A stretch of 64,000 nucleotides of DNA. It comes from an uncultured Chlamydiae bacterium. Lineage in GTDB: Bacteria > Chlamydiota > Chlamydiia > Chlamydiales > JAJFMA01. The position numbers and the translations under genes were made by a program. The notes below the pieces were generated by a model, which worked only from the letters and a program-made list of their open reading frames with translations, did no database searches and was not told the DNA's origin. Where the stretch lies: positions 2,464,001 to 2,528,000 of the forward strand of contig CAVQMM010000001.1 of NCBI GenBank assembly GCA_963713615.1, read 5' to 3'. Shown piece after piece: positions 8,229 through 8,400 of the stretch. The stretch's first letter is position 1, and every line of letters starts with the position of its first letter.

Positions 8229-8266
8229 GCTTTCTAGGCAACTCAAAAGGTTGGCTGGCGCAATTT

Positions 8267-8400
8267 CCTATGTGGCGCAGTCATTCCATGACTGCGGAGC
8301 AATCCGTTGCAATTGTGGAGACGTGCAAAACAAACGTCCCATGTGATGCAAACAGAAGCTGTTTCAACCGTCCTCGCAGTCATGGAATGACTGCGCCACA
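8267..8400. repeat. REPIN-like doublet, family B (GTGG-CGCAGTCATtccATGACTGCG)
   Basis: Two inverted GTGG-headed perfect hairpins around a 78-nt spacer; other copies at 25599-25740 and 53454-53579. Confidence 0.85.

What the first reader, a model, noticed from the sequence alone, without database searches (positions are those of the whole stretch)
8240..8400. Flipped spacer in family B REPIN-like doublets
Seen: the copies at 8240-8400 and 25576-25740 share the same left flank in the same orientation (AACTCAAAAGGTTGGCTG.CGCAATTTCCTATGTGG). The spacer between their two hairpins is reversed: 8297-8374 (GAGCAATCCGTTGCAATTGTGGAGAC...TTTCAACCGTCCT) matches the reverse complement of 25632-25707. A third copy (53454-53579) carries an unrelated spacer. 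Established: GTRG-headed hairpins are REP substrates of RAYT HUH transposases. Inference: spacers are inverted or swapped by recombination or RAYT cleavage at the hairpins, giving a mobile cassette-flipping system.
Basis: partly seen in the sequence, partly recalled or inferred. Interest (0 to 1): 0.7.

Follow-up and report, generated by a model that had tools for sequence, protein, structure and literature searches.

The report
Reshuffled palindromic repeats, not a switch
The spacer between two DNA hairpins does face opposite ways in different copies of a dispersed bacterial repeat, but this is likely the leftover of slow mixing of repeat halves, an ordinary by-product and not a gene switch.

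Summary
Observation confirmed: the left flank is 55/57 identical in the same orientation and the spacer 71/78 identical as reverse complement. Two corrections: copies 1 and 2 share only the left flank, and the third spacer is a diverged relative. The element belongs to a GTGG-headed REP-doublet family (154 arm hits) with two recurrent outer flanks, A and B. Of 26 loci typed at both ends, 15 have the common layout, 3 are clean flips and 8 have the same flank twice; an invertase switch would give none of the last class. In 3 of 4 measurable B/B loci the halves come from different copies. Ends fall at C^T, the RAYT cut site, but no RAYT next to this REP was found in the genome. A younger family with an intact RAYT shows 3 of 147 swapped arms and no clean flip. 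Contigs from other runs match the assembly at 7 loci. Verdict: historical mosaic reshuffling, like atypical BIMEs. The scan reported similar flips in other genomes (e1-3747493, e1-3835851).

The parts
8127..8239 (+). Piece of another repeat family (here 'F') fused upstream of flank A; the same F-A join precedes C1 1755839, 2603457, 2714422 (partly) and 3555048
   Evidence: (I11, I14)
8240..8269 (+). Copy 1 outer flank A (recurrent module ending in CT)
8272..8296 (+). Copy 1 left REP arm: GTGG + 9-bp stem + 3-nt loop
8297..8374 (+). Copy 1 spacer S, minority orientation relative to flank A
8375..8401 (-). Copy 1 right REP arm, ending at a C^T junction (8400-8401, minus strand) with unique DNA; no flank B
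25527..25567 (+). Left part of a family-C REP palindrome that hosts copy 2, ending in CT
25568..25604 (+). Copy 2 outer flank A
25607..25631 (+). Copy 2 left REP arm
25632..25707 (-). Copy 2 spacer S, majority orientation (A next to the spacer's end)
25708..25732 (-). Copy 2 right REP arm
25733..25782 (-). Copy 2 outer flank B, ending in CT on the plus strand
25783..25799 (+). Right part of the family-C palindrome that hosts copy 2
53454..53482 (+). Copy 3 left REP arm with its CT end, unique flank
53483..53550 (+). Copy 3 spacer U, a diverged reverse-oriented relative of S
53551..53579 (-). Copy 3 right REP arm with its CT end, unique flank

Best explanation
These are copies of an old REP-doublet family whose outer flanks and inner spacers have been re-joined in new combinations at the near-identical hairpin arms, most likely by RAYT-type cut-and-join of single-stranded DNA at C^T sites during past copying. 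Shown: the modular layout (flank A or B, arm, spacer S/T/U/D), a dominant layout B-arm-S-arm-A, minority layouts of all three other kinds, chimeric B/B loci, and ends at C^T. Inferred: both strands of a doublet carry a GTGG-headed arm with a C^T just outside it, so joining the A end cut on one strand to the arm cut on the opposite strand, often of another copy, gives A next to the spacer's start, as in copy 1. Copy 1 likely inherited that junction from an F-A-S(+) ancestor shared with C1 1755867, 2603457 and 2714447. Some in-place fold-back events likely add to the mix. The orientation is likely fixed at each locus and without function, since the long hairpin is the same either way.
For: Locus table: 15 common, 3 flipped, 3 A/A, 5 B/B of 26 typed loci (56 spacer loci examined; 30 lacked a typed flank on one or both sides); flips are no more frequent than independent re-assortment of the two ends predicts (expected 1.8, Fisher p = 0.33). 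In 3 of 4 measurable B/B loci the two B flanks differ by 5-7 changes and 12-38 of 44 other copies are closer to each. Among 66 arms without a typed flank (of 80; 14 dropped for a damaged head or flank remnant), base -1 is T in 64 and a CT lies at -2 or -4 in 43, against 6.4% CT background. Flank A starts after CT in 24 of 39 hits. Copy 2 sits at the CT of a family-C palindrome whose unbroken form occurs 230 times. One contig in run X4 joins the end of B head-to-tail to the start of A at that CT, a junction not found in G000. E. coli TnpA-REP cuts at C^T on both strands, performs strand transfer, and atypical BIMEs are chimeras of arms, linkers and flanks (PMC3333891, passages).
Against: No RAYT gene flanked by this REP in G000, and none found via the REP pattern in 400 other genomes of the phylum, GTDB contigs or JGI metagenomes, so the enzyme is inferred. 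Family C, which has an intact RAYT, shows only 3 swapped arms of 147, all symmetrisations that fold-back copying explains equally well. Facing arms within a locus are slightly more alike than shuffled pairs (3.07 vs 3.39, p = 0.003, 48 pairs), which points to in-place arm conversion. At C1 1755966 a T-type arm end (no AT after the CT) adjoins the spacer's end, which fits a crossover inside the arm better than a cut at that C^T. A and B share about 30 nt at the arm, so crossover points cannot be mapped.
Confidence: 0.47

Rival explanations
1. Replication template switching between the two inverted arms of one copy inverts the spacer (two switches) or copies one end over the other (A/A, B/B, spacer-less palindromes); RAYT only spreads the products.
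For: Template switching is described as causing both arm homogenisation and spacer inversion (PMC8604942, passages; yeast, spacers of 2-5 bp). All 3 exceptions in family C are symmetrisations. Facing arms share private variants at C1 1949633/1949780 and 1536291/1536437, and pairs are more alike than shuffled. Spacer-less palindromes exist, e.g. C1 81379, 1368950, 2682401. One B/B locus (3711552) and the A/A locus 538770 have near-identical ends.
Against: 3 of 4 measurable B/B loci have ends from different sub-types, which one-locus fold-back cannot give unless much later divergence. Concordance of duplicated-loop arms alone is not significant (p = 0.18). The spacer is 77 nt, far longer than in the cited yeast cases.
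Confidence: 0.3
2. Host homologous recombination or gene conversion between dispersed copies exchanges halves through the shared arms and the shared family-C pieces outside them.
For: Chimeric B/B loci; the B sub-type usually joined to spacer T appears joined to the spacer's end at C1 1634194, 2714548 and 3395950; minority junctions fall in both main spacer haplotype groups (weak support 59/83); swapped arms are commoner in the older family (15 of 56, spacers 9.7% diverged) than in the younger (3 of 147, 3.4%; p = 4e-7).
Against: Shared arms are only about 30 nt, near the lower limit for RecA (recalled, no call). It does not explain ends at C^T. Family C offers longer and more identical homology yet shows few exchanges.
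Confidence: 0.16
3. A regulated invertible cassette (phase-variation switch or shufflon-like) flips the spacer between the arms.
For: Three loci are clean two-ended flips; the genome holds serine and tyrosine recombinases and IS110 copies.
Against: 8 same-flank loci against 3 clean flips; strong bias to one layout (A: 9 vs 26; B: 15 vs 6; p = 0.002); nearest recombinase or IS110 hit 138 and 155 kb from the window copies; the 9-copy IS110 inserts in family F, not this family; no promoter-like site inside the element; 7 of 7 assignable contig records agree with the assembly.
Confidence: 0.04
4. Repeat-induced misassembly created the minority junctions.
For: Short dispersed repeats can mislead assemblers; no record bridged the arm-spacer junction of window copy 1 or 2.
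Against: Records in three runs of three studies carry minority junctions with the assembly's private variants: X6 record 26 (C1 213024, unique flank to A to arm to spacer start), X3 record 1 (3395905) and X5 record 12 (441 kb) (matched by eye). All 40 full spacers are distinct. The main contig is 3.9 Mb.
Confidence: 0.03

Closest known systems
E. coli atypical BIMEs with TnpA-REP (PMC3333891, passages read)
   Same: Inverted REP pairs with GTRG heads, linkers and flank modules in chimeric combinations, tandem REP-linker units (spacer T, 67-nt period at C1 3783231), junctions at C^T.
   Different: No cognate tnpA-REP found here; different sequence; modules nest inside other REP families.
REPINs of Pseudomonas fluorescens SBW25 (PMC3337134, parts 1-2 of 3 read) and GTAG-family HH dimers (PMC3733652, passages)
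   Same: Intergenic inverted REP doublets that fold into one hairpin, GTGG outside, several spacer types in one family, several RAYTs and REP families in one genome.
   Different: Those passages describe alternative doublet orientations and spacer diversity but not inversion of a spacer against conserved outer flanks; the RAYT-REP pairing is not demonstrated for this family.
Template-switch spacer inversion between inverted repeats (PMC8604942, passages)
   Same: Spacer inversion plus arm homogenisation as products.
   Different: Yeast, 2-5 bp spacers, single locus; does not give halves from different copies.
Correia repeat enclosed element inversion in Neisseria gonorrhoeae (title only, in the reference list of PMC5874624)
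   Same: A miniature repeat whose core is reported to invert between its terminal repeats.
   Different: Correia elements carry promoters (abstract listing of PMC2649163) and are not GTRG REPs; switching at one locus is not shown here.

Membership tests
GTRG-type REP doublet (REPIN / HH dimer) | GTAG or GTGG 0-2 nt 5' of a 7-20 bp stem with a 2-5 nt loop (PMC6006769 definition) | tested here: met
   GTGG directly before a 9-bp stem and 3-nt loop
GTRG-type REP doublet (REPIN / HH dimer) | Two inverted REPs around a spacer, folding into one hairpin | tested here: met
   (z = -7.5)
GTRG-type REP doublet (REPIN / HH dimer) | High copy number, dispersed, extragenic, lineage-restricted | tested here: met
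   154 arm hits; the three window copies lie between longer ORFs (the rest of the genome not checked); 0 of 400 other genomes searched
RAYT-REPIN system (cognate pair) | A RAYT gene flanked by this REP | tested here: not met
   6 Y1 hits plus one broken RAYT-like gene, none flanked by this REP; the one passing NF047646 carries family-C REPs
RAYT-REPIN system (cognate pair) | Element ends at C^T cleavage sites | tested here: met
RAYT-REPIN system (cognate pair) | RAYT binds, cuts and re-joins this REP | not testable with these tools
   needs protein assay
Site-specific invertible switch / shufflon | Only two reciprocal orientations, flanks conserved | tested here: not met
   8 of 26 loci carry the same flank twice
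Site-specific invertible switch / shufflon | Linked recombinase gene | tested here: not met
   138 and 155 kb to the nearest hit for the window copies; 1 of 51 spacer loci within 1 kb of an IS110 that targets another repeat
Site-specific invertible switch / shufflon | Both orientations at one locus in a population | tested here: inconclusive
   only low-depth contigs; 7 of 7 assignable records agree with the assembly; window copies 1 and 2 not bridged
Site-specific invertible switch / shufflon | Promoter or coding piece in the invertible part | tested here: not met
   no sigma-70-like site inside either element (consensus scan only); no Rfam family at cut-off in 7500-9500

The most novel reading that the evidence does not exclude
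A RAYT joins repeat halves cut from opposite strands of different copies, so flanks and spacers re-assort combinatorially, and this orphan REP family now rides inside family-C elements, moved by the family-C RAYT through a circular A-arm-S-arm-B unit closed at C^T (the head-to-tail junction seen in run X4). The genome would then be a natural test set for RAYT strand-transfer rules and for cross-family mobilisation.
Probability: 0.18. Interest if true: 0.45.

Novelty: new member of a known kind. Interest (0 to 1): 0.2.

Why it matters
As read here it matters little: it is another REP-doublet family showing the mosaic reshuffling known from BIMEs. Its modest value is that two recurrent asymmetric flanks make the products countable, and a younger family in the same genome is a built-in control. 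How REPINs diversify in vivo is still open, so chimeric loci with ends at C^T are usable evidence. A true regulated flipping system would be far more interesting, but the tests here argue against it.

Tried and rejected
Whole-element inversion: rejected. Cognate RAYT: not found in G000 by Pfam, NCBIfam and tblastn. The REP pattern gave 1 locus in JGI metagenomes and 1 in GTDB contigs, each a single arm; L027's ORFs showed no RAYT-like product by eye and L026 was only read as DNA. The element was absent from 30 relatives and the arm from 400 phylum genomes, so no orthologous loci could be compared. Sequencing runs: 14 listed, all contigs with word shares 0.05-0.23; 6 of 14 were laid. (X1-X4) did not bridge copy 1. 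In one search (X3-X6) 27 of 29 records were shown; 7 were tied to a locus by eye, and only X6 record 26 and X4 record 10 have 31 or more letters beyond both sides of an arm. One of these runs may be the source sample. Spacer tree: 31 of 37 inner branches open and flank labels in that script were unreliable, so the number of independent events is not settled. Empty-site search had an off-by-one motif and was replaced. One search timed out with partial output and is not used for counts. IS110 as the flipping enzyme: its 9 copies sit in family F. Rfam: only sub-threshold hairpin matches. Literature: searches found no paper on spacer flips in REPINs or on this family; subscription papers are not covered and no supplements were read.

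Full report
Observation. The window is G000:C1:2464001-2528000 of a 3.97 Mb, 3-contig genome. An earlier AI note calls it an environmental chlamydia (e1-2113210); I did not test that. Copies 1 and 2 share 55 of 57 bases of left flank and arm in the same orientation, and their spacers match at 71 of 78 columns only as reverse complements. Reverse-complementing all of copy 2 does not align the flanks, so it is not a whole-element inversion. Copy 1 has no flank B: it ends at a C^T junction with unique DNA. The third spacer is a diverged relative of the main one in reverse.

Family anatomy. The 25-nt arm has 154 hits at up to 4 mismatches and none at up to 3 mismatches in 400 other genomes of the phylum. 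A module map shows outer flanks A and B, the arm, and inner modules S (77 nt), T (42 nt, tandem), U and D. Of 197 arm heads, those with flank A face the spacer's end in 26 cases and its start in 9; those with flank B face its start in 15 and its end in 6 (p = 0.002). Among 56 spacer loci, 26 are typed at both ends: 15 common, 3 cleanly flipped, 3 A/A, 5 B/B. Spacer-less palindromes also occur. Copy 2 has the common layout. Copy 1 has the minority junction and shares an upstream family-F piece with C1 1755839, 2603457 and partly 2714422, all with the same junction; its spacer is 2 changes from that of 1755867, so the junction is likely inherited.

Ends. Arms without a typed flank have T at -1 in 64 of 66 and a CT at -2 or -4 in 43 of 66 (some keep short A/B remnants). 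Flank A starts after CT in 24 of 39 hits, and the whole A-to-B unit of copy 2 sits at the CT of a family-C palindrome that occurs unbroken 230 times. C^T is the cleavage site of E. coli TnpA-REP, which also performs strand transfer (PMC3333891, passages).

Enzyme. Six Y1 genes and one broken RAYT-like gene were found; none is flanked by this REP. The one that passes the NCBIfam RAYT cut-off (83.9 vs 80 bits) carries tandem family-C REPs. Pattern scans of JGI metagenomes and GTDB contigs gave one single arm each. The nearest recombinase or IS110 hits are 138 and 155 kb from the window copies.

Internal control. In the younger family-C composite (spacers 3.4% diverged; 61 doublets in the common layout) only 3 of 147 typed arms are swapped, against 15 of 56 here (spacers 9.7% diverged; p = 4e-7). 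All three are symmetrisations, none a clean flip. Swaps therefore look like slowly accumulating events, although the comparison involves only two families.

Where the halves come from. In 3 of 4 measurable B/B loci the two ends differ by 5-7 changes and many other copies are closer; one B/B locus could not be measured; the A/A loci are mostly uninformative. This favours exchange between copies. Against that, facing arms are slightly more alike than shuffled pairs (p = 0.003), and one junction fits a crossover inside the arm, so fold-back template switching (PMC8604942, passages) likely contributes. Crossovers cannot be mapped inside the shared 30 nt, so the enzyme route stays open.

Reads. Only low-depth contigs were available. 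Seven records from runs X3-X6 could be tied by eye to specific loci and all agree with the assembly, including minority junctions at C1 213024, 3395905 and 441 kb in runs of three studies, and window copy 3. Neither copy 1 nor copy 2 was bridged. This argues against misassembly and weakly against switching. One X4 contig shows a head-to-tail B-to-A junction at the CT that is not in G000.

Function. The copies lie between co-directional ORFs: after fusA and a short ORF that looks like rpsJ (label recalled) with a terminator-like hairpin, after a Bax-inhibitor-like gene, and before an MFS fragment. No promoter-like site lies inside either element. The long hairpin is the same in either orientation (inference).

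Comparison. It meets the REP and REP-doublet criteria (PMC6006769 and PMC3733652, passages; PMC3337134, parts 1-2 of 3) and works like atypical BIME chimeras. It fails the cognate-RAYT test in this genome and the invertible-switch tests. PMC5941160 was seen only as a search listing and reference passages. Searches found no paper on this family or on spacer flips in REPINs. The scan's earlier notes report the same pattern in other genomes; they are unchecked and not counted as support.

Verdict. Real, genome-wide, most likely a historical by-product. Probability that it is not a regulated switch about 0.93; RAYT-type re-joining 0.47, fold-back 0.30, host recombination 0.16. Interest 0.2.

Noticed in passing
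G000:C1:433299-435760, also 598846, 867451, 939087, 1312883, 1349134, 3750666: An IS66-like element (about 2.3 kb; label from recalled ORF layout, no family scan) sits at the same place inside family-C doublets in at least 7 copies.
   Followed up: partly
G000:C1:205034, 1754925, 2060324, 2107974, 2334478, 2700653, 3247581, 3307924, 3547514: Nine near-identical IS110-family copies all insert at one position in the family-F hairpin, like REP-targeting IS110 elements; the 300-nt leader is a candidate for a bridge RNA (untested).
   Followed up: partly
G000:C1:3256588-3257115 (L006, L030): Intact RAYT between inverted tandem arrays of family-C REPs; family C has over 200 arms and a young, near-identical composite nested in family-F pieces.
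   Followed up: partly
G000:C1:2876535-2877006: Frameshifted RAYT-like gene (about 50% identical to the intact one) between inverted REPs of a family-C variant.
   Followed up: partly
G000:C1:3872948-3873400, 3243391-3243840, 1465784-1466737, 1580934-1581920: Four more Y1 genes, each flanked by its own hairpin repeats; two have a DnaA-like C-terminal piece; one is partly duplicated in tandem.
   Followed up: partly
run X4 contig laid at window 8240 and L028 3308: Head-to-tail junction of flank B to flank A at the CT (depth 5.2), absent from G000: a circle, a tandem or a strain-specific locus.
   Followed up: partly
window 8979-9449: A run X3 contig skips 9102-9383 (280 nt, within inverted arms 8979-9034 and 9365-9420), suggesting presence/absence of a repeat insert between strains.
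   Followed up: no
G000:C1:691571, 2155085, 3399696 and others: Some arms carry a duplicated loop segment, in direct or inverted form, so flips also occur at the scale of the small hairpin.
   Followed up: partly
window 31476-31666, 36430-36610, 45411-45638: Further inverted doublets of other repeat families in the window.
   Followed up: no
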